A stretch of DNA of 64,000 nucleotides from a virus, in IMG/VR virus record IMGVR_UViG_3300036859_000424; one strand, written 5' to 3'. The notes under the pieces are model-generated. The model saw only the letters and a list, made by a program, of their open reading frames with translations, was not told the origin of the DNA and searched no databases. Positions 4,504 to 61,418 of the stretch are shown piece by piece. The translations under genes and the position numbers were made by a program. Positions within the stretch are counted from its first letter, which is position 1. Every line of letters starts with the position of its first letter.

Positions 4504-4868
4504 TGAAAGTCATCGTCTGCGTCGGCACCCAGCCGCCCCAGATCTGCGAGATCGAACGGCTGACCCCGACCAACCGCATCCGCTGGGCCGACGGCCAGGG
4601 GCCGATCGGCAAGGTCTGGCACAGCGACAAACCCAAGCCGGTCTACACCAATCAGACCTACTTCCAGGTCTCCGACACCATCTTCCCCTACAGCGACGAC
4701 AACCTGTTGAAGCTGATTGAGCGCCAGGCGACCTGGGCGCTGGCTGAACAGGCCATGCGCGACGCCCGACTGGCGTACGAGACAACCCGGGCAGACGCCA
4801 ACAGCCGGGCCGGGGTCGGCAAGCTGGAGCTGAAGGCGATCCAGGAGGCGACGAACCGTGGGACGTGA
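4503..4868 (+). CDS. hypothetical protein
   Basis: TGATG coupling; starts MKVIVCVGTQ. Confidence 0.7.
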   Translation: MKVIVCVGTQPPQICEIERLTPTNRIRWADGQGPIGKVWHSDKPKPVYTNQTYFQVSDTIFPYSDDNLLKLIERQATWALAEQAMRDARLAYETTRADANSRAGVGKLELKAIQEATNRGT

Positions 4869-5505
4869 CGCACGCATAAAGCGCCAGCGGCGGGCGGCCC
4901 AGGACGTCCCCGGGCCGCCGGCTGACATCGTCCGGGACGTCCCGCCCCACGTCAGGCAGACACTGGCCCAGTCGATGCGCCAGTGGTTCGACCCCAGCCC
5001 GACACCACCGCCCTGGACGACTTTTGAGATTAGCGTTGAAAACCGGTACGCGGGAGGGCGGACCCGGGAGCAGGCGATCGATGAGCTGGTCGAGAAGACC
5101 GGCTTGTCGCGCGAGCACTGCGAGCAGGCGATTGCCGACCTGGCGGCCGAGACGATCTACGTCAACAGCCGGTACCAGGTCAACGTCAGGCGGCAGGACC
5201 CGGCTGAAGGGTCGGGCGCGCCGCCGCTGGTGCACCTGTCGATCAAGTGCATCTGGAACGGCAAGCGGCCCCCCGGCCCGGAGCGGTTCCGGGACTTCCA
5301 ACGGATCAAAAATGAGCTGGTCGGGCCGGAGTGCGAGGCGACTGAAGTCTACCCCGCGGAGTCTCGGCTCGTAGACACCAGTAACCAGTTCCACCTCTGG
5401 GTCTTCGATGACCCCACCTTCCGGATCCCGTGGGGCTTCGGGTCGCGGCTGGTGACCGACATCCAGATCCTGGACAGCGTCCAGCAGCCGTTTGAGGGGG
5501 GCTGA
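4858..5505 (+). CDS. conserved phage protein (HLSI...FQRIKNELVG...YP...HLW family; DUF7694-like from memory)
   Basis: Motif LVHLSIK...RDFQRIKNELVGPECEATEVYPAESRLVDTSNQFHLW. Confidence 0.65.
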   Translation: MGRDARIKRQRRAAQDVPGPPADIVRDVPPHVRQTLAQSMRQWFDPSPTPPPWTTFEISVENRYAGGRTREQAIDELVEKTGLSREHCEQAIADLAAETIYVNSRYQVNVRRQDPAEGSGAPPLVHLSIKCIWNGKRPPGPERFRDFQRIKNELVGPECEATEVYPAESRLVDTSNQFHLWVFDDPTFRIPWGFGSRLVTDIQILDSVQQPFEGG

Positions 5506-5507
5506 CC

Positions 5508-5825
5508 GTGGCGATAGTGCCCGAACTGACCGACGACGAACGGCCGGTCTTCATTGCCTGGGCGCGGTCGCGCACGCAGTTCATCCCGCGCATGGCGGAC
5601 GGTCAGGACATCGGCCGTAGGTCAATCCAGCGAGAATCGCTGGACCTGATCGGTGGAACGATCACCATCCGCCGGGTGGTCCAGTCGGTGGACGAGCTGG
5701 TCGACCGCTGGCGATCCCTGGGGCGCCCCGACGCCCCGATCCATAACCGACGGGCGCCCGGCCTGCCCATCTATCGTGGGGGCACCGGGCGGATCGGCCA
5801 GGGAAGGAGGCGACGCGAGACCTGA
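5508..5825 (+). CDS. hypothetical protein
   Basis: Coupled ORF. Confidence 0.65.
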   Translation: MAIVPELTDDERPVFIAWARSRTQFIPRMADGQDIGRRSIQRESLDLIGGTITIRRVVQSVDELVDRWRSLGRPDAPIHNRRAPGLPIYRGGTGRIGQGRRRRET

Positions 5826-6397
5826 TGACCACGAAAGCCCAGTTCAAGCGCGTCAAGGAGAGCCTGGAGCGCGAGCGGCTACGCCTGAGAGGCGAGGCGC
5901 TGACGCTGGAGAAGCGGCAGCGCGAGATGCGACAGGAGCGCGTCGACGCGATCGCCTATCTGCGGCTGCTGTGCGGCCAGTACGGCGACAACGACTGGCC
6001 CGACACCATGCCACTGGTCGAGATCCTCCAGGTCCACCTGGCCCACCGTCTCCAGGTCGACCTGTCCAGGATCAGCCGGCGGCTGGCCCAGCTTCAAGCT
6101 GAAGTCGAACGGCTCCGGCAGGCCCCGGAGCAGTCGCAGGACCCCCTGCGGGGCGCGACCATCGCAAGCGACGTCCCGGACACGGTCCGGGACGTCCCCC
6201 GCCCGACGCCGGCGTCGGGCGGTCCCGCCCCCCGCGACGTCCCGGGCCACCAGACCCTGCCGGTCGTATCTACGGGCGGGAAGTGGACCGGGACCTGTAG
6301 CTGCGGCTGGCGCCAGTTCGGCCTGCCCAACAAGGAGGCGGCCCAACTGGCCGGCGACGTCCACGCGTCCCGGATGCTGCCGCTGACCGCGACATGA
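5825..6397 (+). CDS. coiled-coil protein with C-terminal CxCGW zinc motif
   Basis: Helical charged N-half; HQT...WTGTCSCGW...H. Confidence 0.7.
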   Translation: MTTKAQFKRVKESLERERLRLRGEALTLEKRQREMRQERVDAIAYLRLLCGQYGDNDWPDTMPLVEILQVHLAHRLQVDLSRISRRLAQLQAEVERLRQAPEQSQDPLRGATIASDVPDTVRDVPRPTPASGGPAPRDVPGHQTLPVVSTGGKWTGTCSCGWRQFGLPNKEAAQLAGDVHASRMLPLTAT

Positions 6398-6906
6398 TGG
6401 ACATCCACCAGACGCTACGCCACTACCTGGAAGCGATGGTCGAGGCGATCCCGGCCCTGATGGGTCCCACGCCGCGACCCCAGCGCTACCGATCGTATGA
6501 GCACCTGGTCTACGACCTGGGGCAGCCCTGGGTGTCCGCCCCGCTGCCCCCGTTCGTGGTCCCCGGCCCGATGCGCTACTGCTATCAGAACACCCTGGAT
6601 TTGCTGCGCCAGGTGCGCGAAACGTCTGATCTGCCCCTACGCTACGTTGAGGGGTACGCGATCGCGGCGATCGGCGACTTCCAGGGTATCCCCTGCCAGC
6701 ACGCCTGGCTGATCGACCCGGCCGGCCAGATCTGGGACCGGACCTGGCCGGAGCCGGAGCGGTCGGCGTACTGGGGCATCGTGTTCGACAGGGACGAGGT
6801 CGAGCGGTTCGACTACCTGGGTCCCGACTACCTGGGCATCCTGGCCAGTGAATACCTGCTTTCGTTCCCATTGCTCCGCACAGGAAAGCTGTTCCCAGAT
6901 GGATAG
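6394..6906 (+). CDS. putative papain/transglutaminase-like Cys-His-Asp protein
   Basis: CYQNT...YVEGYA...PCQHAWLID...WDRTW. Confidence 0.6.
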   Translation: MMDIHQTLRHYLEAMVEAIPALMGPTPRPQRYRSYEHLVYDLGQPWVSAPLPPFVVPGPMRYCYQNTLDLLRQVRETSDLPLRYVEGYAIAAIGDFQGIPCQHAWLIDPAGQIWDRTWPEPERSAYWGIVFDRDEVERFDYLGPDYLGILASEYLLSFPLLRTGKLFPDG

Positions 6907-7357
6907 CCCGGCTGCTGACTGGCGATCCATGCCGTGCGAGGAGTGGGTCGGCCCGGTCTTCCAGGACACCGGCTACGGCCGGGTCCGCACGCGCCTGGGG
7001 GACCGCACCGCCCATTCCTACACGTGGGAGGAGTGCTTCGGCCCTATCGAGGACGGCCTGGTCATCGCCCACCACTGCGATAACCGCCCCTGCCGTCAGC
7101 CACTACACCTGTTCAAGACGACGAAAGCGGGCAACAACCGTGACATGGCCGCGAAGGGGCGGCATTTCAAGCAGCAGAACACCCACTGTCCCAACGACCA
7201 CCCGTTCGATACTGGGAACACTCGTACCGGCGATGGCTATCGCCGCTGTCGACAGTGCATGACCGACAAGCAGCAGCGATACCGCGCCCGGAAACGATCG
7301 CTGCTGCGGACTGGCCAGCTATTCCCACCAATCACGGAGGAGATCACGCACGCATGA
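6899..7357 (+). CDS. HNH endonuclease (HNH_3 type), putative homing endonuclease 1
   Basis: GYG...HHCDNRPCRQPLHL...NNRDM plus C-terminal THCPNDHPF...RRCRQC zinc module. Confidence 0.9.
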   Translation: MDSPAADWRSMPCEEWVGPVFQDTGYGRVRTRLGDRTAHSYTWEECFGPIEDGLVIAHHCDNRPCRQPLHLFKTTKAGNNRDMAAKGRHFKQQNTHCPNDHPFDTGNTRTGDGYRRCRQCMTDKQQRYRARKRSLLRTGQLFPPITEEITHA

Positions 7358-7689
7358 CCGACGACATGAACCGCCCGGTACAGCTTCTCATTTGAGCGTC
7401 GGGCGTCATAACCTGGCGGTCGCCGGGTCAGACCCTGATCAAAGGCTTCCCGGGCCTGCCGGTGTTCAGCGTGAACACCGAGCACCAGGCCCAGCAAGCC
7501 CAGGTCACCTTCGGCCAGTACGGCTGCGTCCAGGGGGTGTACCTGTACAAGTGGACCGAGTTTCCGACCGGCGACGTTGGCGCCCTGGGGATGGTCACCA
7601 GGACCCTGCGGGACTGGTGGGCAACGAACTACGGGCACGAACCGGACGCGCCGATCGTGTACCCGCCCCGCCGACGGCGGCGGCCCTGA
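7354..7689 (+). pseudogene. phage protein interrupted by an in-frame TGA at 7393-7395
   Basis: ATGA-coupled start with GGAGG RBS; frame reads MTDDMNRPVQLLI*ASGVITWR...LPVFSVNTE to a stop inside CCTGAGAGGAG. Confidence 0.6.
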
Positions 7690-7699
7690 GAGGAGCGAT

Positions 7700-8203
7700 G
7701 TGACCGCCCCCTACCGGAGCTTCTACACCCGCACGTCTTCTGTCACCTGTTCCCCCTGCATCCGCCGATCGCGATCGACCGGCGGCTACAAGGCCGATCT
7801 GCTGTTCTGGGTCCGGGGCCGGATCGGGATCGACGGCGGCCACCTGGTTTACCAGACCCACGTCGACCCCGATCAGACCATCCTGCTGTGCCAGGCCCGC
7901 CAGAAGGCGCTGACCGAAACGACGGCTGAGCACATGGCGGTCGGCCCGGTCGGCCACATGCTGTCCTGGAACGTGTTCCGGGAGGAGGACGGCTGCGAGA
8001 TCGACAGCGACATGAATCCGGCCGGGTCCTGGCTGGTCAACCGGTTCGAGACCGCCGACGGCCCCCGCTGGGCGATCCAGCGGCCCTGGGACACCACACT
8101 GAACACCGACGACGGGCGGGTCTACCTGACCGAGATCGAAGCGATCGCCGACGCGGTCGCCGGGATGGTCTCAAGCGCCCTGTCCGGCGACGAACAGGGC
8201 TGA
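7700..8203 (+). CDS. hypothetical protein
   Basis: GTG start 4 nt after CCTGAGAGGAG. Confidence 0.75.
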   Translation: MTAPYRSFYTRTSSVTCSPCIRRSRSTGGYKADLLFWVRGRIGIDGGHLVYQTHVDPDQTILLCQARQKALTETTAEHMAVGPVGHMLSWNVFREEDGCEIDSDMNPAGSWLVNRFETADGPRWAIQRPWDTTLNTDDGRVYLTEIEAIADAVAGMVSSALSGDEQG

Positions 8204-8230
8204 CCCCCACACCTGAGAGGAGCAGTCGAG

Positions 8231-8683
8231 ATGGCGTTCAATGATCGTGGGCATCACTTCATTCGGGTCACCAACGTGGTCTACCCACTGACACCCAGCA
8301 ACGGCTACGCAGCCGATCACACGATCCAGGTCTACGGACCGTTGGGGTACAGCGTCGATCTGAAGGCGACCGTCGTCAGCTATCACGGCGCCAGGAACGA
8401 CGCCGGCGTCATCGCCGCCGCCCTCAGCCAGTGCCCGGTCGATGAGATCGAAACCGACAACCGCTACTACTACCGCACGGATCGGCGCGCGTCGACCCCT
8501 AGTGGCGACTATGGCGTCCGGTTCACCCCATCCTGCCAGATCTCGCGCCGCCAGTACGAGGCCCTGCTGAACCATACCGCCGACCACACGGACATCTTGC
8601 TGGAGATTGAGCGAGCGCTGGCGTCTCCATCCGTGCGAATCACCACCGAGGCCATAGACGAGCAGCAGGCGCCCGCCGAGTGA
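8231..8683 (+). CDS. hypothetical protein
   Basis: Preceded by CCTGAGAGGAG. Confidence 0.75.
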   Translation: MAFNDRGHHFIRVTNVVYPLTPSNGYAADHTIQVYGPLGYSVDLKATVVSYHGARNDAGVIAAALSQCPVDEIETDNRYYYRTDRRASTPSGDYGVRFTPSCQISRRQYEALLNHTADHTDILLEIERALASPSVRITTEAIDEQQAPAE

Positions 8684-17092: not shown

Positions 17093-17303
17093 AAACGGAG
17101 ACCAGACGCTGCCGCCGACGCTGGTCCTGCACAGCTACAGCAGCGATCGTCACGGGCGGGCCGTCGCCGACGCACGCCTGGACGGCCTGATCCAGGGATT
17201 CTGCTGGGGCCTGGGCGCAGCGGGGCTGACCTGGTTCGTCCTGTCGGGGAACCTGGTCCGCCTGTTGATCGCCGTCGTCCGGTCGGCGCTGGCCCTGCCG
17301 TGA
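17085..17303 (+). CDS. small membrane protein
   Basis: C-terminal hydrophobic helix. Confidence 0.65.
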   Translation: MRRNGDQTLPPTLVLHSYSSDRHGRAVADARLDGLIQGFCWGLGAAGLTWFVLSGNLVRLLIAVVRSALALP

Positions 17304-18280
17304 GACTGTCGATCGACGCCATCGTGGTCGACCCGACCGTCCAGATCAGGGCGGCGAACGACCCCGACACCGTGCAGCGCTACGCCGAAGCGCTCGACGC
17401 GCTGCCACCGGTCGACGTGTTCCTGGTCGACGGCGCCTACCTGCTGGTCGACGGCTTCCACCGCGTCGAAGCGGCCGTCCTGGAAGGCCGGACCGAGATC
17501 GAGGCGGTGGTCCACCGGGGCAGTCGGCAAGACGCCATCGAATTCGCGGCGCTGGCCAACCTGGCCCACGGCAAGCCGCTGGATCGGGAAGAACGGAACG
17601 CCGCGATCCGCCGCCTGGCCGGGCTGCCGGGCGACGCCTGGTCCCACCAGCGGCTGGCCCAGCGGTTTGGGGTCTCGCGCCCGGTCATCAGTAAGTTATT
17701 CGCGGCCGACCGGGTGCGCGCGGAGGTTGTCGAACCAACGCGACTGAACGACTTCGCTACTAGTAGCGAAGCTGACGACCGCCTGACCGACAGCCACTAC
17801 GCCGAGATCAGCCGCGCGCCACGCGAGACCTGGCAGCCGCTGGTCGACGCGGCGGTCGAAGAAGACTGGGACAGTGTCGAGACCAGCGCGGCGGTCGCGA
17901 TCGTCAAGGACCCCACGGTCCCGGAGGCGGACAAGCAGGCCCTGTTGAACGGGGACGCCGACCTGTCCGAATTCGGCACGGACCGTCGCCGGATGCCGCC
18001 CGACCCGACGGCGCTGCCGGTGCCACCCCCGCCGACGTTCGGCGACGTCAAGCACGACATCGTGCGCGAGGTTGAAGCGACGGGCGCCGAAGGCCGGATG
18101 CTGCGCAACCTGCTGTATTCGATCGAGTCGGCCGGTCGCTGGCCGCTACCTGACCTGGTGCGGGGCCTGGACGCGACGGAACGCCGACAGATCCTGGATG
18201 ACCTGCCGGGTCGGATCGCCTGGCTGACGTCCCTGCGCGACGCGATCGACCGCGACTTGAAGCCCCTGGAGATGGTGTGA
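17300..18280 (+). CDS. ParB-like protein (ParB/Srx domain plus HTH)
   Basis: LPPVDV...YLLVDGFHRVEAA...ANLAHGKPL; HTH WSHQRLAQRFGVSRPVIS. Confidence 0.85.
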   Translation: MRLSIDAIVVDPTVQIRAANDPDTVQRYAEALDALPPVDVFLVDGAYLLVDGFHRVEAAVLEGRTEIEAVVHRGSRQDAIEFAALANLAHGKPLDREERNAAIRRLAGLPGDAWSHQRLAQRFGVSRPVISKLFAADRVRAEVVEPTRLNDFATSSEADDRLTDSHYAEISRAPRETWQPLVDAAVEEDWDSVETSAAVAIVKDPTVPEADKQALLNGDADLSEFGTDRRRMPPDPTALPVPPPPTFGDVKHDIVREVEATGAEGRMLRNLLYSIESAGRWPLPDLVRGLDATERRQILDDLPGRIAWLTSLRDAIDRDLKPLEMV

Positions 18281-18809: not shown

Positions 18810-19199
18810 TCAGCGCTGGCGGTCAGGGTGGTTTTCCAGCGCCCAGGTCAGACCGTTCGCCGTCGTCCGGTCGGCGCTGGCGCTGCCATGAGATCTAGGG
18901 CCGTACAGGGCGACCAGCCAGGCCGGACACCGACAACGGTTGAACGGTGGGTGAAACTGGTGGATCAATTCCGACTCAACGTCACGGCACGTCAGCGGGT
19001 CTTCAGCACGCCAGGCGATCCGTTCCGCGCCAGTCCGCGACAATCGCGCGATCAAGCTGTGGGACTGCCAGCGCTGGCGCAGGTTCAGCGACTGCCCGAT
19101 GTACAAGGGCGTCCCGTCGCCGGACAGCACGACGTAGACACCGGCGACCCGTGGCAGGTCCCGGCGCCGATTCAGTGCGACCGACGGCAGTCCGGTCAG
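18810..19199 (-). CDS. GIY-YIG nuclease family protein (start uncertain, probably CTG 19199)
   Basis: LPSVAL...DLPRVAGVYVVLSGDGTPLYIGQSLNLRQRWQSH...ESELIHQFHPPFN. Confidence 0.75.
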   Translation of the reverse strand: MTGLPSVALNRRRDLPRVAGVYVVLSGDGTPLYIGQSLNLRQRWQSHSLIARLSRTGAERIAWRAEDPLTCRDVESELIHQFHPPFNRCRCPAWLVALYGPRSHGSASADRTTANGLTWALENHPDRQR

Positions 19200-35882: not shown

Positions 35883-35992
35883 GGCTGGCTCCCGTCGTAG
35901 TTCGTGAAGCAGAAGTAGGTGTCGTCCTCGCCGGCGGCCGCCAGCGCCGCCAGGGGCGCCGCCAGGCCCTGGGTGATTAGCTGGGGGTCCAC
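35867..35992 (-). CDS. 41-aa acidic peptide (DDTYFCFTNYDG)
   Basis: GTG-start ORF; paralogous tail to the ORF at 35977-36204. Confidence 0.45.
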   Translation of the reverse strand: MDPQLITQGLAAPLAALAAAGEDDTYFCFTNYDGSQPCPSR

Positions 35993-36204
35993 GGTGACCC
36001 CCCGTCGTAGTTCGTGAAGTAGAAGTAGGTGTCGTCATCGCCGTCGTCGGCGGCCGCGTCAGCGGCGTCGATCCGGTCAAGCGTGGGCCAGAAGATCTCC
36101 GGCTTGATGTCGATCAGCACCTGTTCCCATTCCCCGAAGGCGGGGCACCGCGCCGGCATCGGGGCGATCCGGGAGCCAGAGTCGTGGGGGGTGGACGGCA
36201 TCAC
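35977..36204 (-). CDS. small acidic protein (DDTYFYFTNYDG)
   Basis: About 45-bp direct repeat shared with the next ORF; overlaps the C39 gene tail. Confidence 0.45.
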   Translation of the reverse strand: MMPSTPHDSGSRIAPMPARCPAFGEWEQVLIDIKPEIFWPTLDRIDAADAAADDGDDDTYFYFTNYDGGSPWTPS

Positions 36205-37820: not shown

Positions 37821-40015
37821 CAGGTGTTGCTCCAGGAGACCAGGCTGAACTGCCCGCCGCCGGTAGAGAGGCCCCGGGCGTACGGCCCGACTTCGGTCGC
37901 GGCTGTCAGGATGCCGGACAGGTCGTGGATCGACAGCGACTGCCAGACCCGGCCGTCCATGCTCCACCAGACCTGGAAGTTGACGTTGTCGGTCGTCCGG
38001 AGCCGGAACCAGATCGGGTGCAGGCTGAACAGATCCTGGCTGAACAGCGTGGTTGGCAGGGTCACGGTGCCGGTCGAGGAGACGACCCTGGCTTCAAAAT
38101 GATCGGTGTCGTAGGCGATCTCGACGCCGGCGTAGCCGCCGCCAGATCCGGTCAGCATGACGCCGACCGCCGCGTCGGTGTCAGGCGAGAGCGTCGGCAC
38201 GATGAACGCCGCGATGTCCCAGGTCGGGCTCGGAACGTTGCGTCGCCAGCCGACCATCTCGGTGCCAGTGCCGCCCTTCTGGGCGGTGAAGGCGCCGAAG
38301 TTCGCGGCGTTCCAGCCACCGGTGCTGCCAAAGGTGAACCAGCCGGATGTGCCGACCGGCGAGACGATCGGGCGGGTGTAGCCCGGCACCAGGGTCAGCA
38401 TCTCGATCGCGCCGCCGCTGCCGACCCCAAGGACGGTGCCGGCCCCGCCGTCGGTCACCGAGAACCGCTCCGGCGCGCCGCTGGCCCCGCCGACGATGAT
38501 GTCGCCGGCGTCGGTCATCGGGTTGGCAAAGCCACCCCCGGACCCCGGCGCGCCCCAGAACGGCCGCCCGCTGCCGTCAAGCTGAAGCACGTCGCTCTCA
38601 GTGAAACTGCTGGGGAGACGGACTGGGGCGCCGGCGGCCGCGCCGTCGTACAGGTAAAACTCTGTGATCCGCCAGCCGTTGGCGCCGCCGCTAACCCCCA
38701 GCAGCCGCCAGCGCTGGGCCGTGGCCGGGGTGTCCAGGATGACCAGGCCGGTCCCGAACGACGACCCCTGACCGGTCTGGGTGTTGGCCACCTGCCAGGT
38801 GGCCCCGTCCCAATACTCCAGGTCGTACTCGTCAGCCCGGAAGCCGGCCCCGGTCTCGTTGGTCACCACCTCAAAGGCGACGATCTCGATCGGGGACCCC
38901 AGATCGATCTCGACCCAGCCGCCGTCCGCCGGGCCGGCACCCTGGTCCCAGAAGGTGTCGAAATCGGCGTCATGAACGTTGTCGGGGCTGGACCCGGCTT
39001 CGGTCGATGACGCGGTCGCCGTCGCTGGGTCCAGGTGTGAGACGGCGCTGTACGGCTCGCCAGGCACAGCGCCGTAGATCATGTCGAACGGGGCGATCAT
39101 CGGGTTGGTCAGGCCACCGCCGCTGCCACCTTCACCGGGTGGGCCAGCGGGTCCGGTCGGTCCGGCCGGGCCGGTAGCTCCGACAGCTCCGGTGTCACCC
39201 TTCGCCGCCAGCAGGCCCCAGTAGAGAGCTGCGGGCGGTTCCTGGTTGACGTGGGCCAGGATGCACAGGTAGCTGGACCCTTCGTGGCTGACGGCGTCGA
39301 ACAGGGCGTAGGTCTGGGCGCTGTTCCAGTCCCCCTGCCAGACGATGCTGCCGCCGCTGCCACCGCCACCGGTCGCGGCCGTCCACAGCTCGATCGTGTT
39401 CACGACCCAGAAGTGGCCGACGTCGGCGCCGGCGAGTCCGTACAGGCGCCAGTAGCGGGCGGTGACGGCGACCGGCAGGGCGACCTTGCCGGTGTCGGTG
39501 AACGGTCCGGTGATCGTGACCTGGTCGGTCCAGATGACGTCATCGGTGCTGCTTTGCAGCTTCGCCGACGTCGCCCGGTTGGCGATCGACTCCGGGCTGT
39601 TCAAGACCCGGTATTCGGCGATCGTCTCGGCCGTCCCGAGATCGATCCTGACCCATTCGTCGGACGCGTCGTTGGGGAAGGCGCCAGCCCAGCTTGTCCC
39701 GTCGTCACCGTCGATCGTCAAGCCGGGGACGCGCTCCGGGCCACTAGCATTCTGTGAACTGGCCGTGGCGACAGCGCCGGCGGTCGCCAGGGCGACGTTC
39801 TCGCCGGGCGTGCCCCCGCCGCCGCCGCCGCCGATGCTGACCGGCCCGACCGGCAGCCATTCGTCGTCGCTCTCCGATCGGACCTTCAGTCGGTACGGCA
39901 CGCCGCCCGACGTGTCGACCCAGAAGATCTTCGCCCGGACGTCCTCGTCGGTCGGTTCTTCGGACTGGACGAACGCGGCCAGGTGGATGTCGTTCAGCTC
40001 AGCGTGATCGGCCAT
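37820..40015 (-). CDS. receptor-binding protein: two F5/8 type C (discoidin) domains, short collagen, WxGxW module, beta-sandwich tip
   Basis: NVALAT...ATASSQ...IDGDDGTSW...WVRIDLG...ARYWRL and a second copy. Confidence 0.85.
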   Translation of the reverse strand: MADHAELNDIHLAAFVQSEEPTDEDVRAKIFWVDTSGGVPYRLKVRSESDDEWLPVGPVSIGGGGGGGTPGENVALATAGAVATASSQNASGPERVPGLTIDGDDGTSWAGAFPNDASDEWVRIDLGTAETIAEYRVLNSPESIANRATSAKLQSSTDDVIWTDQVTITGPFTDTGKVALPVAVTARYWRLYGLAGADVGHFWVVNTIELWTAATGGGGSGGSIVWQGDWNSAQTYALFDAVSHEGSSYLCILAHVNQEPPAALYWGLLAAKGDTGAVGATGPAGPTGPAGPPGEGGSGGGLTNPMIAPFDMIYGAVPGEPYSAVSHLDPATATASSTEAGSSPDNVHDADFDTFWDQGAGPADGGWVEIDLGSPIEIVAFEVVTNETGAGFRADEYDLEYWDGATWQVANTQTGQGSSFGTGLVILDTPATAQRWRLLGVSGGANGWRITEFYLYDGAAAGAPVRLPSSFTESDVLQLDGSGRPFWGAPGSGGGFANPMTDAGDIIVGGASGAPERFSVTDGGAGTVLGVGSGGAIEMLTLVPGYTRPIVSPVGTSGWFTFGSTGGWNAANFGAFTAQKGGTGTEMVGWRRNVPSPTWDIAAFIVPTLSPDTDAAVGVMLTGSGGGYAGVEIAYDTDHFEARVVSSTGTVTLPTTLFSQDLFSLHPIWFRLRTTDNVNFQVWWSMDGRVWQSLSIHDLSGILTAATEVGPYARGLSTGGGQFSLVSWSNT

Positions 40016-40071
40016 CTCAGGACGCCGGACCTGTGCTGTGACCGGCCATTGCCGAGAACAGGCTGTTGACG

Positions 40072-40626
40072 TCAGCGGGTGTGTGGGCAGTACCCGTAGC
40101 GCCCGAGGGCGAAGTTACAGTTGGCGCAGAGCACCCGGTAGCCCTCCGGAAAACCGTTCCGCCGGAGCCAGTAAAAGACGCCGGTCGACCCGCGAGACCC
40201 AGACTGGGCGCGCTGAACTCCTCCACCGCCGTTGACGTGGTCAAGCTGCAAGAACTCGTCGGCGGTCTCGTCACAGCAGGCGCAGTGGGGCTCGCCGCCG
40301 GCGTAGTGGGATAGGACGAGTCGGCGGATTGCGATGGCGGCTGCGCGCGTCTCACGGTTCCGTTGATCTCGCCAGTCGGGATCGCTGGCGTACCGGCGCC
40401 GGTTGCGGGCTGCGTTGTCGGTGTAGACGGCGTCCTTGTTCGCCTCGACATAGGCGCGTCGGGCGGCCAGTTTCTGCTCGCGGTTGGCGGCATAGTAGCG
40501 TTTGGATCGCGCACTGTCACACTGCTTGCAGACGGCAGCAACGCCGAAGCGCCCGCCCGGCTTCCTGGGGAAGTCGTTGTCGGTATCTTTCGGTTTCTCG
40601 CAGGCACGACAGACCTTGATCGGCAT
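40072..40626 (-). CDS. HNH-type endonuclease, putative homing endonuclease 2
   Basis: CRAC...CKQC zinc finger; HCACC...LQLDHVNG...VLCANCN. Confidence 0.85.
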   Translation of the reverse strand: MPIKVCRACEKPKDTDNDFPRKPGGRFGVAAVCKQCDSARSKRYYAANREQKLAARRAYVEANKDAVYTDNAARNRRRYASDPDWRDQRNRETRAAAIAIRRLVLSHYAGGEPHCACCDETADEFLQLDHVNGGGGVQRAQSGSRGSTGVFYWLRRNGFPEGYRVLCANCNFALGRYGYCPHTR

Positions 40627-40669
40627 GCGGCCAGTGTACTAGGCATGTTGTGCTCCTCGCACTGTATGT

Positions 40670-40972
40670 TCACGACGTTGGGCCTGTGCTGTGACCCGCC
40701 ATCGCACTGAAGAGGCTGTTGACGGTGAACTCTAGATCGCCATCGACGCTCTCGGCCGTGATGGCCGGGTTGCCGGCGACCGCCATCGCCATCGGGCCGG
40801 AGGCGCTGGCCGGGTTGTTCAGCGCGTAGGTCGCGTAGGTCGCGCGCAAGTCGTGCCCGTCGACATTCTGGACTTCGGCCATCACGGCCGTTGACGCCTT
40901 GATCAGCGCCATCTCGACCCGGGCGCGGAAGGCCGGGTCGACCCCAAGTGCGTACTGGTCAGCGAACGCCAT
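40670..40972 (-). CDS. virion-associated hypothetical protein
   Basis: Coupled in the tail operon; its 3' end is duplicated at 40017-40070. Confidence 0.8.
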   Translation of the reverse strand: MAFADQYALGVDPAFRARVEMALIKASTAVMAEVQNVDGHDLRATYATYALNNPASASGPMAMAVAGNPAITAESVDGDLEFTVNSLFSAMAGHSTGPTS

Positions 40973-59960: not shown

Positions 59961-60352
59961 TAGTCGACCCCCATCCAGCATTCGTAGTTGCAGCCGACCA
60001 AGCTCCGGCCGCTGGAATCACCGGTCATCGCGAACGGCTCAGACATCGCGTAGATCGCCTTGTAGGTCCGGCCGTTGACGCTGGCGATCGCACCACCCCG
60101 GATCGCTACCAGCAGGTCGCGGATGTCTCTGGCGCGGGTCCGGGCGGCCTGGGGGTCCCGGTCTCGGACGATGACCTGGACATGCGGGTAGCGCCGCTCG
60201 CCGCCGTTGTGGACCCAGGCGGCCGGGCGGCCGGCGGTGTCGGCGATCGCCGCGCAGACGTCCGGCTGCTCCGGCAGCCGGCCCATCACCAGGGTCGTGC
60301 CCAGGGTGCCCAGGCCGGCCGTGACCAGCAGGTCCGCGATGTCTTCCGGCAT
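59960..60352 (-). CDS. tail terminator / minor capsid 3-like neck protein
   Basis: DIADLL...GLGTLG...GRLPEQPD...PHVQVIVR. Confidence 0.8.
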   Translation of the reverse strand: MPEDIADLLVTAGLGTLGTTLVMGRLPEQPDVCAAIADTAGRPAAWVHNGGERRYPHVQVIVRDRDPQAARTRARDIRDLLVAIRGGAIASVNGRTYKAIYAMSEPFAMTGDSSGRSLVGCNYECWMGVD

Positions 60353-60378
60353 CACAGCCTCCCTGCTAGAGTTGCGGC

Positions 60379-61008
60379 GTGAAGCGCTGTTCGCGGTGCG
60401 GGGCCGACCCGACCGCCGAAAACTCGTACCCGACCGGCCAGGTCTGCCGGCCCTGTAAGGTCGCGAGCGCGATGGCCTGGAACAAGGCCAACCTCGAACG
60501 ACGCCGTCAAATCAGTGCTGCGTCGGCGCGGCGGGCATACCACGCCGATATCGACGCCACGCGGGCCAGGAAACGCGCCTGGCGGGCCGAGAACGCCGAT
60601 CGGGAGAACACCCGCACCCAGCGCTGGCGTGATGCCAACCCCGGCGCGGTCCGCGCCCAGAACGTCCGTTACTACCACGCCAACCCTGACGCCAGTCGGG
60701 CGCGCTGGCTGACCCACTACCTGGCAGACCCGGAGCCGACCCGTCAGCGCAACCGTCGGCGTCAGGCGCTGGTGCGCGGGGCAACCGTCTACCCGTTCAC
60801 GGTGGCCGACTGGCAGGCCCAGGTCGACGGCTTCAACCGGCGCTGCGCCTACTGCCTGCGACCGCTGATCCGGGTGACGATGGATCACATGACCCCGGTC
60901 TCGCGGGGCGGGGATCACGCGATCGAAAACCTGGTCCCCTGCTGCCAATCGTGCAACAGCCGAAAGAAGGACCGAACACTGCTGGAATACCTGCCGCTTC
61001 TTGGGTGA
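60379..61008 (+). CDS. HNH endonuclease (antisense to the late operon), putative homing endonuclease 3
   Basis: RCAYC...TMDHMTPVSRGG...NLVPCCQSCNSRK. Confidence 0.9.
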   Translation: MKRCSRCGADPTAENSYPTGQVCRPCKVASAMAWNKANLERRRQISAASARRAYHADIDATRARKRAWRAENADRENTRTQRWRDANPGAVRAQNVRYYHANPDASRARWLTHYLADPEPTRQRNRRRQALVRGATVYPFTVADWQAQVDGFNRRCAYCLRPLIRVTMDHMTPVSRGGDHAIENLVPCCQSCNSRKKDRTLLEYLPLLG

Positions 61009-61010
61009 CA

Positions 61011-61418
61011 TCACAGCCCCCAACTTCGCAACAGAACACCAGCGACACCACGCATCAGGTTTTCAGGTCCATCCCTGGTCCATTCTAGTAATGGACGCTC
61101 AAGGAACTTCGCCTGTTTTCCTTGCGCATGTTTGTAGTCCAATCTTTCGTGTTGGATCAGCGCGTAGGGGACGTCGTTGTCGCCGCCGTAGCTGATGTAG
61201 ACGTTGACGATCCCGCCACCGATCTCCGGGTCATCGACCCGACCGGAGTTGACCAGGCGCTTCGTGTCGACGGGGCACAGCCGCTGCGAGACCTCCAGCA
61301 CACCGACCATCTCGCGCTTCAGCCCTACCGCGCCGACCGCTTCGACCTGGGGCACCAGCGACAGCACCCGTCGTCGGAAAGCGTCCAATCCGACCACCTG
61401 GCACGTCGTGTCGATCAT
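61011..61418 (-). CDS. HK97 gp10-like neck / tail-completion protein
   Basis: SQRLCPVDTKRLVNSG...PYALIQHE...AKFLERP. Confidence 0.85.
   Translation of the reverse strand: MIDTTCQVVGLDAFRRRVLSLVPQVEAVGAVGLKREMVGVLEVSQRLCPVDTKRLVNSGRVDDPEIGGGIVNVYISYGGDNDVPYALIQHERLDYKHAQGKQAKFLERPLLEWTRDGPENLMRGVAGVLLRSWGL

What the first reader, a model, noticed from the sequence alone, without database searches (positions are those of the whole stretch)
6841..7357. HNH insertion 1: the upstream gene's end is duplicated and recoded, and the old end is now the HNH tail
SEEN: gene 6394-6906 ends LLRTGKLFP (6871-6897, in an A/T-ending codon patch). The HNH gene ends LLRTGQLFP...EEITHA (7301-7357), which carries the GGAGG RBS of the next gene. 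The two copies share 8/9 residues, but 7 of 9 codons differ. INFERENCE: the nuclease inserted into the last codons of its target gene and brought a synonymous replacement end that restores the protein and resists re-cleavage. The same logic recurs at two more HNH genes in this window, suggesting a class of self-repairing, intron-less homing cassettes.
Basis: partly seen in the sequence, partly recalled or inferred. Interest (0 to 1): 0.7.

Follow-up and report, generated by a model that had tools for sequence, protein, structure and literature searches.

The report
HNH homing gene with replacement gene end
A selfish DNA-cutting (HNH) gene sits inside the last codons of a soil phage gene, which still works because a second, differently spelled copy of its end lies in front of the insert; this layout is already known from yeast, fungal mitochondria and T4-like phages, so this is a clear new example, not a new principle.

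Summary
Gene A (6394-6906) ends LLRTGKLFPDG*. The HNH_3 gene (6899-7357) ends LLRTGQLFPPITEEITHA*. The copies share 8/9 residues and 20/27 bases; six of seven differing codons are synonymous.

Three HNH-less relatives of gene A (about 55% identity) all run on past LFP. One reads LLRTGQLFPPDTE, 12/13 identical to the HNH tail. None ends LFPDG*. The nearest HNH relatives stop about where the tail begins.

So an HNH gene entered the last codons of gene A. The native end was pushed 430 nt downstream and fused in frame to the nuclease. A diverged, shortened end now closes gene A.

A second HNH (40072-40626, minus strand) shows the same layout with a 55-nt duplicated end. A third (60379-61008) shows only a 14-nt repeated junction.

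That the end came in with the nuclease, and that it resists cleavage, is inferred, not shown.

The architecture matches yeast WHO elements, fungal mitochondrial mORFs and, in part, the T4 MobA element. This scan has noted it before on other DNA (phages and DPANN archaea). I rate it a new member of a known kind, of moderate interest.

The parts
6394..6906 (+). Gene A, the target gene (170 aa). It belongs to an uncharacterised family with invariant C63, H103 and D115. It ends PLLRTGKLFPDG*.
   Evidence: ORF. No Pfam or PHROG family. Homologues. AlphaFold model has pLDDT 90.5, with residues 159-163 forming a short helix. Structural matches are only to uncharacterised AFDB clusters, and PDB hits to papain-like or transglutaminase-like hydrolases are weak, E above 0.06.
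6847..6906 (+). Replacement (new) end of gene A. It is an A/T-ending codon patch and contains copy 1 of the duplicated segment at 6871-6897. Its last 8 nt overlap the HNH start.
   Evidence: 9 of 21 codons end in A/T against 10% in the gene body; control across genes. The protein matches relatives through LFP and then stops after DG.
6899..7300 (+). HNH_3 endonuclease core (residues 1-134) with the catalytic HNH motif intact. There is no intron or intein context.
   Evidence: PF13392 at E 4e-8 on residues 38-81. phrog_826 at E 3e-28 on residues 10-138. Motif columns are invariant in A3. No Rfam family in 6700-7800.
7301..7357 (+). Displaced native end of gene A, read in frame as the HNH C-terminus (LLRTGQLFPPITEEITHA*). 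Copy 2 is 7301-7327. GGAGG at 7336-7340 is the ribosome-binding site of the next gene. The native stop overlaps the next ATG at 7354-7357.
   Evidence: 12/13 residues identical to the end of the HNH-less homologue in L008. Alignments. HNH relatives end before this segment. Homology of the downstream module to L002 starts at GGAGG.
7354..7689 (+). Downstream gene Y, coupled to the old stop by ATGA. It carries a conserved in-frame TGA at 7393-7395.
   Evidence: Alignment with L002 positions 4706-4990.
40017..40724 (-). Second case on the minus strand. The new end of the 100-aa gene is 40724-40670 (...VNSLFSAMAGHSTGPTS*). The HNH/EndoVII-like ORF is 40626-40072. The displaced old end is 40071-40017 (VNSLFSAMAGHSTGPAS*) and keeps its TGAgATG junction to the tail-fibre gene.
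   Evidence: 55-nt repeat with 45/55 identical bases. Seven synonymous codon differences, including Ser AGT versus TCG, and one non-synonymous. phrog_2255 HNH at E 3e-12.
60350..61148 (.). Third case. An antisense HNH (60379-61008, plus strand) lies between a neck gene and the tail-terminator gene. A 10-14-nt repeated stop/start junction sits at 60350-60359 and 61009-61018. The end of the neck gene (61148-61011) is rich in A/T-ending codons. No old end is retained.
   Evidence: PF01844 at E 2e-12. Repeat. 24 of the last 45 codons end in A/T against 11 of the first 90.

Best explanation
A free-standing HNH_3 homing-endonuclease gene entered the last codons of phage gene A by repair of a double-strand break.

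Shown:
- The element lies between a working end of gene A (6847-6906, ending LLRTGKLFPDG*) and the displaced native end (7301-7357, LLRTGQLFPPITEEITHA*).
- The native end now reads in frame as the nuclease's C-terminus. It still supplies the native stop and the ribosome-binding site/ATGA coupling to the next gene.
- Removing exactly the 430 nt between the repeats would restore an uninterrupted gene A of the type found in HNH-less relatives.

Inferred:
- The working end was copied from a diverged donor allele together with the nuclease gene. The left side would be homologous invasion inside gene A, with the conversion tract starting near 6847.
- The right side would be joined illegitimately, at or near shared Arg-Thr codons, to the broken recipient end. 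This leaves the recipient's own end as a stub.
- The cut site of the HNH-less allele is therefore predicted near codons 158-160 of gene A.
- The diverged end, and the split of the site by the insert, would make the carrier immune.
- The 8-nt overlap with gene A would express the nuclease by translational coupling.

Three unrelated HNH genes in this genome show the pattern in graded form. This points to a generic outcome of homing into partly homologous genomes, not to one cassette family.
For: - Coordinates, frames and repeats.
- HNH identity and intact motif.
- Relatives of gene A lack any HNH in 1.4-10.6 kb of context, and their genes run past LFP. tblastn of the HNH protein against those loci hits only with tail residues 135-147, on the ends of the gene A homologues (L008 12/13).
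- Nearest HNH relatives (51% identity) end ...RKTDETRTA*, about where LLRTG begins. Cultured-phage relatives also end right after the CxxC/basic stretch.
- The two copies are as different from each other (20/27 nt) as from orthologues at 55% protein identity (19-21/27).
- Pooled over cases 1 and 2, 13 codon differences are synonymous and 2 are not. P is 8e-4 if one copy had decayed neutrally after an in situ duplication.
- Ser AGT versus TCG in case 2.
- The old end is contiguous with the native downstream module (ribosome-binding site conserved with L002).
- No intron.
- The same three-part model has been published. For WHO elements the unit is the resistant 3' end plus the nuclease plus the displaced fragment (PMC7282813). 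For mitochondrial mORFs see PMC3630166. The T4-type MobA element carries a diverged homologous replacement region (bioRxiv 10.1101/2022.08.31.505936).
- HEG ORFs overlapping the upstream gene are common in T4 (PMC2988022).
Against: - No donor, no close HNH-less sister (above 60% identity) and no second carrier were found, so the direction and mode of acquisition are inferred from 27 nt plus 51 nt only.
- DNA comparison cannot tell which copy is native (19-21/27 to all relatives).
- The A/T-ending patch is not specific: 5 of 76 ORFs have equally A/T-rich ends. It is also more A/T-rich (43%) than the HNH gene itself (20%), which a common donor does not explain.
- Gene order differs from the best relative: Y lies upstream of gene A in L002. 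The ancestral A-Y junction is therefore inferred.
- The HNH lacks the ~50-aa N-terminal CxxC extension of its nearest relatives, so its activity is uncertain.
- Four cultured-phage relatives of the HNH show no such duplication.
- Cleavage and immunity are untested.
Confidence: 0.68

Rival explanations
1. In situ origin. The HNH gene was inserted by microhomology-mediated or illegitimate recombination that duplicated 27 nt of the resident gene end. The copies then diverged within this lineage. Synonymous changes in the upstream copy would have been favoured because they stabilise the insert against repeat-mediated deletion, create HNH translation signals (ACA GGA AAG), or block self-cleavage.
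For: - Only the 9-codon core is duplicated, with no similarity on either side.
- The K codon and the A-ending codons form a purine-rich AGGAAAG 13 nt before the HNH ATG.
- Case 3 has only a 14-nt repeat, like a microhomology joint.
- Adaptive recoding would also give a synonymous excess.
Against: - The copies are already as diverged as orthologues at 55% protein identity.
- The untranslated old copy in case 2 shows almost no non-synonymous change (1 of 8 differing codons). It also carries a three-base Ser codon switch.
- The A/T-ending patch extends 8 codons upstream of the duplicated core, as expected for a conversion tract.
Confidence: 0.2
2. Passive mosaic joint. Two phage lineages recombined illegitimately inside the end of gene A. 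The HNH gene is a passenger at the module boundary and no site-specific cleavage by this enzyme was involved. It may be inactive.
For: - Gene order around gene A differs between the window and L002.
- Nuclease genes are known to sit at boundaries of genetic exchange between phages (PMC10448857).
- The HNH is shorter at its N-terminus than its nearest relatives.
Against: - The same layout recurs at a second, unrelated HNH gene, and in weaker form at a third, in one genome. In each case it lies exactly at a gene end.
- The catalytic motif is intact.
- Both flanks keep the translational coupling signals.
Confidence: 0.1
3. Chance or functional mimicry. The nine-residue match is coincidental, or the HNH tail copies the C-terminal motif of gene A for a function of its own.
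For: The match is short (9 residues).
Against: - None of 300 shuffles exceeded 6/9 identities.
- The tail continues to match an orthologue's end beyond the nine residues, 12/13 in all.
- The tail uses the native stop and the native downstream junction.
- HNH relatives lack the tail.
Confidence: 0.02

Closest known systems
WHO elements at the yeast FBA1 gene (Coughlan et al. 2020, eLife, PMC7282813)
   Same: The unit is a resistance-conferring replacement 3' end of the target gene, then the nuclease gene, then the displaced old 3' fragment downstream. The fragment serves as the right homology arm. The 3' part of the target gene is far more diverged than its 5' part.
   Different: The WHO nuclease is an intein-like LAGLIDADG/zinc-finger protein in a eukaryotic nucleus, and its fragments are hundreds of bp long and form arrays. 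Here the nuclease is an HNH_3 enzyme in a dsDNA phage. The duplicated core is 27 nt (57 nt of old end), and the old end is fused in frame to the nuclease. Allele-specific cleavage was shown for WHO6 but is untested here.
Mobile endonuclease ORFs (mORFs) of fungal mitochondria that create gene hybrids: Allomyces macrogynus atp6; Glomus atp6, atp9, cox2 and nad3 (Beaudet et al. 2013, PMC3630166). C-terminal duplications of cob and atp6 next to free-standing HEGs (PMC6279837).
   Same: There is a carboxy-terminal duplication: an inserted C-terminus carried with the endonuclease ORF, with the native C-terminus left downstream. The inserted copy is diverged at DNA level but conserved at protein level. 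Some ORFs are in phase with the host gene.
   Different: The enzymes are LAGLIDADG or GIY-YIG, in organelle genomes. There the mORF is usually fused to the upstream gene, whereas here the nuclease is fused to the downstream native end. In fungi, close sister species identify the native copy. Here the relatives are too distant to do that at DNA level.
MobA element of T4-like phages (Bonocora et al. 2011 PNAS, as described in bioRxiv 10.1101/2022.08.31.505936)
   Same: It is a phage HNH-family free-standing homing element that enters a coding region. It carries its own diverged homologous replacement (homR) of the target segment containing the nick site, and it protects the carrier from further nicking.
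   Different: MobA splits the target gene in two and deletes 55-75 nt of it. Protection comes from the 50-nt bypass insert, not from the polymorphisms. No displaced native copy remains.
Intronless homing of T4 seg and mob endonucleases, such as SegF/gene 56 and MobE/nrdB (review PMC2988022)
   Same: These are free-standing, promoter-less HEGs between or overlapping genes. They are expressed by overlap with the upstream ORF, they target a neighbouring gene, and they spread with co-conversion of flanking markers.
   Different: Their cleavage sites lie hundreds to thousands of bp from the insertion site. No duplicated target end is described for them in that review (0 occurrences of 'duplicat').

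Membership tests
HNH_3 (PF13392) free-standing homing endonuclease | HNH catalytic motif present and intact | tested here: met
   PF13392 at E 4e-8, 33.2 bits against a cut-off of 24.8. phrog_826 at E 3e-28. H58, D61, N62, H70 and N79 are invariant with relatives.
HNH_3 (PF13392) free-standing homing endonuclease | Presence/absence polymorphism at the locus among related genomes | tested here: met
   Three lineages of gene A homologues (L002-L007, L008, L009) have no HNH in the fetched context. These relatives are distant, at about 55% identity.
HNH_3 (PF13392) free-standing homing endonuclease | Site-specific cleavage or nicking of the HEG-less allele, and biased inheritance | not testable with these tools
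   This needs enzyme assays or mixed infections.
3'-end-replacing homing elements (WHO / mORF type) | Nuclease gene directly downstream of a full-length target gene, followed by a displaced fragment of that gene's 3' end | tested here: met
   The order is gene A (6394-6906), HNH (6899-7300), old end (7301-7357). Case 2 has the same order.
3'-end-replacing homing elements (WHO / mORF type) | The displaced fragment is the native one: it is closer to element-free relatives than the working end is | tested here: inconclusive
   Protein level supports it: Q not K, and PP-TE continues as in L008, 12/13 residues. DNA level does not resolve it: 19-21 of 27 for both copies.
3'-end-replacing homing elements (WHO / mORF type) | Working end diverged at synonymous sites but conserved in protein (imported or resistant allele) | tested here: met
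   6 synonymous and 1 non-synonymous difference in case 1; 7 and 1 in case 2. P is 8e-4 against neutral decay of one copy.
3'-end-replacing homing elements (WHO / mORF type) | Allele-specific cleavage: old-type allele sensitive, carrier resistant | not testable with these tools
   No assay was possible.
Group I/II intron-borne or intein-borne homing endonuclease | Ribozyme fold around the ORF, or an in-frame intein with splice junctions | tested here: not met
   No Rfam family at E up to 1 in 6700-7800. Gene A ends at a TAG (6904-6906), and the HNH is in another frame.
Transposon-type insertion with target-site duplication | Identical short direct repeats made at insertion, and a transposase | tested here: not met
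   The repeats are 27 and 55 nt long and only 74-82% identical. The only ORF between them is an HNH.

The most novel reading that the evidence does not exclude
In phages, free-standing homing endonuclease genes commonly spread as three-part units: a diverged replacement gene end, the nuclease, and the displaced native end. The left edge of the displaced end would mark the cleavage site, so nuclease targets could be read from sequence alone. Running a reading frame into the old stop codon (the HNH itself here; an overlapping +1 frame in case 2) would be selected because it preserves stop/start coupling to the downstream gene.
Probability: 0.3. Interest if true: 0.6.

Novelty: new member of a known kind. 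Interest (0 to 1): 0.45.

Why it matters
The finding shows, within one 86-kb soil phage, how intron-less homing genes can enter coding regions without destroying them. It predicts a concrete target site, near codons 158-160 of gene A, for an HNH enzyme whose specificity would otherwise be unknown.

If general, duplicated gene ends next to nuclease genes have three uses. They give a sequence-only way to map homing sites. They help date invasions. They explain small 'orphan' ORF tails and odd codon patches at gene ends in phage annotation.

The principle itself is already established for yeast WHO elements, fungal mitochondrial mORFs and, in part, the T4 MobA element.

Tried and rejected
- Megablast of 5800-8300 against 50,697 phage records found no match.
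- tblastn of gene A against phages gave one weak hit at 32% identity.
- Exact searches for the old-end and new-end sequences in IMG/VR found no other contig.
- Scans of viral and metagenome contigs for gene A relatives found only 26-46% identity relatives. These are too distant to help beyond showing that the family usually runs 12-35 residues past the PLL motif.
- A viral-contig scan for HNH relatives found two distant loci only.
- The 100-aa target gene of case 2 has no relatives in the word-indexed protein search, so case 2 could not be checked against element-free genomes.
- I laid the contigs of two soil runs on 6000-8200. Only the identical full-length form appeared, with no joint skipping the HNH. 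Contigs cannot show rare HNH-less variants, so this says nothing about their existence.
- Four cultured actinophage HNH_3 loci (Tucker, Bibwit, REQ3, Angelicage) and two metagenomic HNH loci (L012, L013) were tested for a duplicated upstream gene end. None was found.
- A promoter/terminator scan of 6300-7800 found nothing useful.
- I first read the A/T-ending patch as strong evidence of foreign origin. I downgraded it after the across-gene control.
- A first tblastx synteny run was uninformative noise until filtered by score.

Full report
**Context.** The window is part of an 86,416-bp IMG/VR virus record with direct terminal repeats. Its GC content is 68%. Early genes lie on the plus strand up to about 33 kb, and structural genes lie on the minus strand. 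No close relative exists among 50,697 deposited phage genomes. Identical contigs occur in two soil metagenome runs at 44x and 53x.

**Observation.** Gene A (6394-6906, 170 aa) ends ...SEYLLSFPLLRTGKLFPDG*. An ORF with its ATG at 6899 overlaps it by 8 nt (ATGGATAG) and runs to 7357. It is an HNH_3 endonuclease: PF13392 at E 4e-8 and phrog_826 at E 3e-28 over residues 10-138. It ends ...RKRSLLRTGQLFPPITEEITHA*. The two LLRTGxLFP segments (6871-6897 and 7301-7327) share 8/9 residues and 20/27 bases. Seven codons differ, six of them synonymously. GGAGG at 7336-7340 and the ATGA overlap at 7354-7357 form the start region of the next gene. In 300 shuffles of the HNH protein, no 9-mer matched gene A in more than 6 positions.

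Gene A has three homologous lineages in public assemblies at 53-55% identity: P0002 (six contigs, the longest 57 kb), P0003 and P0004.
- Their loci carry no HNH next to the gene.
- tblastn with all three HNH proteins of the window against these loci gives no nuclease hit.
- The only hits are from residues 135-147 of HNH 1, that is its tail, onto the ends of the gene A homologues. In L008 the match is 12/13: LLRTGQLFPPDTE against LLRTGQLFPPITE.
- All three homologues continue 13-78 residues past LFP, and have Q or R where gene A now has K.
- More distant family members also run 12-35 residues past the PLL motif.
- No relative ends LFPDG*.

On the nuclease side, the closest HNH relatives (51% identity) end ...RKTDETRTA*, about where LLRTG starts in the window's protein. 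Cultured-phage relatives also end soon after the CxxC/basic stretch. The tail is therefore foreign to the nuclease family and native to the gene A family.

**Anatomy.**
- The distance between the copies is 430 nt (3 x 143 + 1). The old end is out of frame with gene A but in frame with the HNH, which has no stop of its own and ends at the old stop.
- Deleting exactly the inter-repeat distance would restore an uninterrupted gene A ending ...LLRTGQLFPPITEEITHA*.
- The last ~20 nt of the old end, together with gene Y, are homologous to a module that in relative L002 lies upstream of the gene A homologue. Homology starts at GGAGG. The old end is therefore contiguous with its native downstream neighbour.
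- There is no intron signature, and gene A ends at a real TAG, so this is neither intron nor intein.
- Gene A gives a confident model (pLDDT 90.5). Residues 159-163 (PLLRT) form a short helix, and C63, H103 and D115 are invariant. It matches only uncharacterised AFDB clusters, and weakly papain-like or transglutaminase-like hydrolases.
- The new end keeps the conserved motif but drops the variable extension: it is 7 codons shorter than the old end.

**Was the end imported or did it arise in place?**
- The two copies differ from each other as much (20/27) as either differs from orthologues at 55% protein identity (19-21/27).
- Pooled with case 2, 13 differing codons are synonymous and 2 are not. 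If one copy had decayed neutrally after an in situ duplication, about 56% of differences should be non-synonymous (P 8e-4). If both had decayed neutrally, P is 4e-6.
- Case 2 includes a Ser AGT/TCG switch.
- This argues that both copies spent most of their divergence as ends of working genes. That fits a donor allele and a recipient allele brought together by recombination.
- Selected synonymous recoding in place would give the same signal, and I cannot exclude it.
- The A/T-ending patch (9/21 against 10% in the body, P 1e-4) starts 8 codons upstream of the duplicated core, as a conversion tract would.
- Two cautions apply. First, 5 of 76 ORFs in the window have equally A/T-rich ends. Second, the patch is more A/T-rich than the HNH gene itself (43% against 20%), which a common donor does not explain.

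**Other HNH genes in the window.**
- Case 2 (minus strand). A 100-aa gene ends ...VNSLFSAMAGHSTGPTS* at 40670. An HNH/EndoVII-like ORF (40626-40072; phrog_2255 at E 3e-12) follows. Directly after its stop lies a 55-nt copy of the upstream gene's last 17 codons plus stop (40071-40017, 45/55 identical). This copy still abuts the start of the tail-fibre gene through TGAgATG. Here the old end is not fused to the HNH. However, a +1 frame from ATG 40646 stays open to the old stop. That has a probability of about 0.01 from the window's own +1-frame stop rate.
- Case 3. A PF01844 HNH (60379-61008) lies antisense between a neck gene and the tail terminator. It is flanked by a 10-14-nt repeat of the stop/start junction GGCTGTGATG. 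The last 45 codons of the neck gene are 53% A/T-ending, against 12% before (P 3e-11). No old end is retained.
- The three nucleases belong to different HNH families. The shared layout is therefore best read as a generic product of the invasion mechanism, not as one cassette lineage.

**Mechanism proposed.**
- Shown: the insertion position, the displaced native end, the diverged working end and the preserved coupling signals.
- Inferred, step 1: the nuclease cuts the HNH-less allele near codons 158-160.
- Inferred, step 2: the left end invades a diverged donor allele and copies its end plus the HNH.
- Inferred, step 3: the right end is joined illegitimately near shared Arg-Thr codons.
- Inferred, step 4: the carrier becomes immune because the site is both respelled and split.
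- Inferred, step 5: the HNH is translated by coupling to gene A, as for several T4 seg and mob genes (PMC2988022).

**Comparison with the known.**
- The layout is that of yeast WHO elements. Their authors define the unit as the nuclease gene plus the resistance-conferring 3' end upstream, with the displaced fragment as homology arm (PMC7282813).
- It is also that of fungal mitochondrial mORFs, with an inserted C-terminus and a native C-terminus (PMC3630166; PMC6279837).
- In phages, the T4-type MobA element carries a diverged homologous replacement of its target segment, but it deletes the native copy (bioRxiv 10.1101/2022.08.31.505936).
- My full-text searches found no paper describing retained duplicated gene ends beside phage HEGs. 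The searched library is incomplete.
- Earlier notes of this scan report the same layout in other phages and in DPANN archaea. They also report cases 2 and 3 of this genome. I verified cases 2 and 3 myself.

**Verdict.** Import of the end and resistance to cleavage remain inferred. This is a new member of a known kind, of moderate interest.

Noticed in passing
window 7354-7689 (+); L002 4706-4990: The gene after the HNH has an in-frame TGA at 7393-7395 that is conserved in the ~60%-identical relative L002. Conservation on both sides is of the coding type (synonymous and conservative changes). In L002 there is no canonical in-frame start after the TGA, and a gene caller left that stretch empty. 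It is a candidate for stop-codon readthrough or another recoding event. There is no Rfam hit, and the only tRNA prediction in the window is a doubtful tRNA-Ala.
   Followed up: partly
window 17268-17304 and 18856-18892; minus-strand ORF 19421-18810: A 37-nt direct repeat (35/37 identical) comprises the end of a 72-aa gene plus the stop/start overlap of a ParB-like gene. The second copy lies 1.6 kb downstream, inside the 3' end of a minus-strand GIY-YIG ORF (PF01541 at E 7e-5). This may be another homing-endonuclease-associated duplication with a different geometry.
   Followed up: partly
window 35891-35941 and 36001-36051; gene 36676-36077 (-): A 51-nt repeat (90% identical, 110 nt apart) lies near the start of the GH25 lysin gene (36080-34533). 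It encodes DDTYF(Y/C)FTNYDG twice. The upstream gene, 36676-36077, has the most A/T-rich end in the window: 14 of its last 21 codons.
   Followed up: no
window 6899-6930; L013 1022-1612; P0006: The nearest relatives of the HNH carry a ~50-aa N-terminal CxxC...CxxC extension that is absent here. The window's start Met corresponds to an internal Met of those proteins (LMDLSSAPDWRTMPCEEW). The left junction with gene A may therefore also be a truncating joint.
   Followed up: partly
window 40646-40017 (-): In case 2 a +1 frame starts at an ATG preceded by GAGGAG and stays open for 209 codons through the HNH gene to the old stop codon of the displaced end. The window's own +1-frame stop rate gives P of about 0.01. 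The predicted product looks like a non-coding-frame translation.
   Followed up: partly
window 5825-8203 versus L002 3696-6778: Gene order differs from the closest relative. Module Y lies downstream of gene A plus HNH in the window, but directly upstream of the gene A homologue in L002. L002 also has extra small genes on both sides.
   Followed up: partly
window 38737-38834 (-): ARAGORN calls a 98-nt tRNA-Ala (GGC) inside the 731-aa tail-fibre ORF. It is probably a false positive.
   Followed up: no
L008 402-1034: The relative contig that carries the HNH-less gene A homologue P0003 has a GIY-YIG/NUMOD3 endonuclease gene 2 kb upstream. This gene neighbourhood attracts homing genes in other lineages too.
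   Followed up: no
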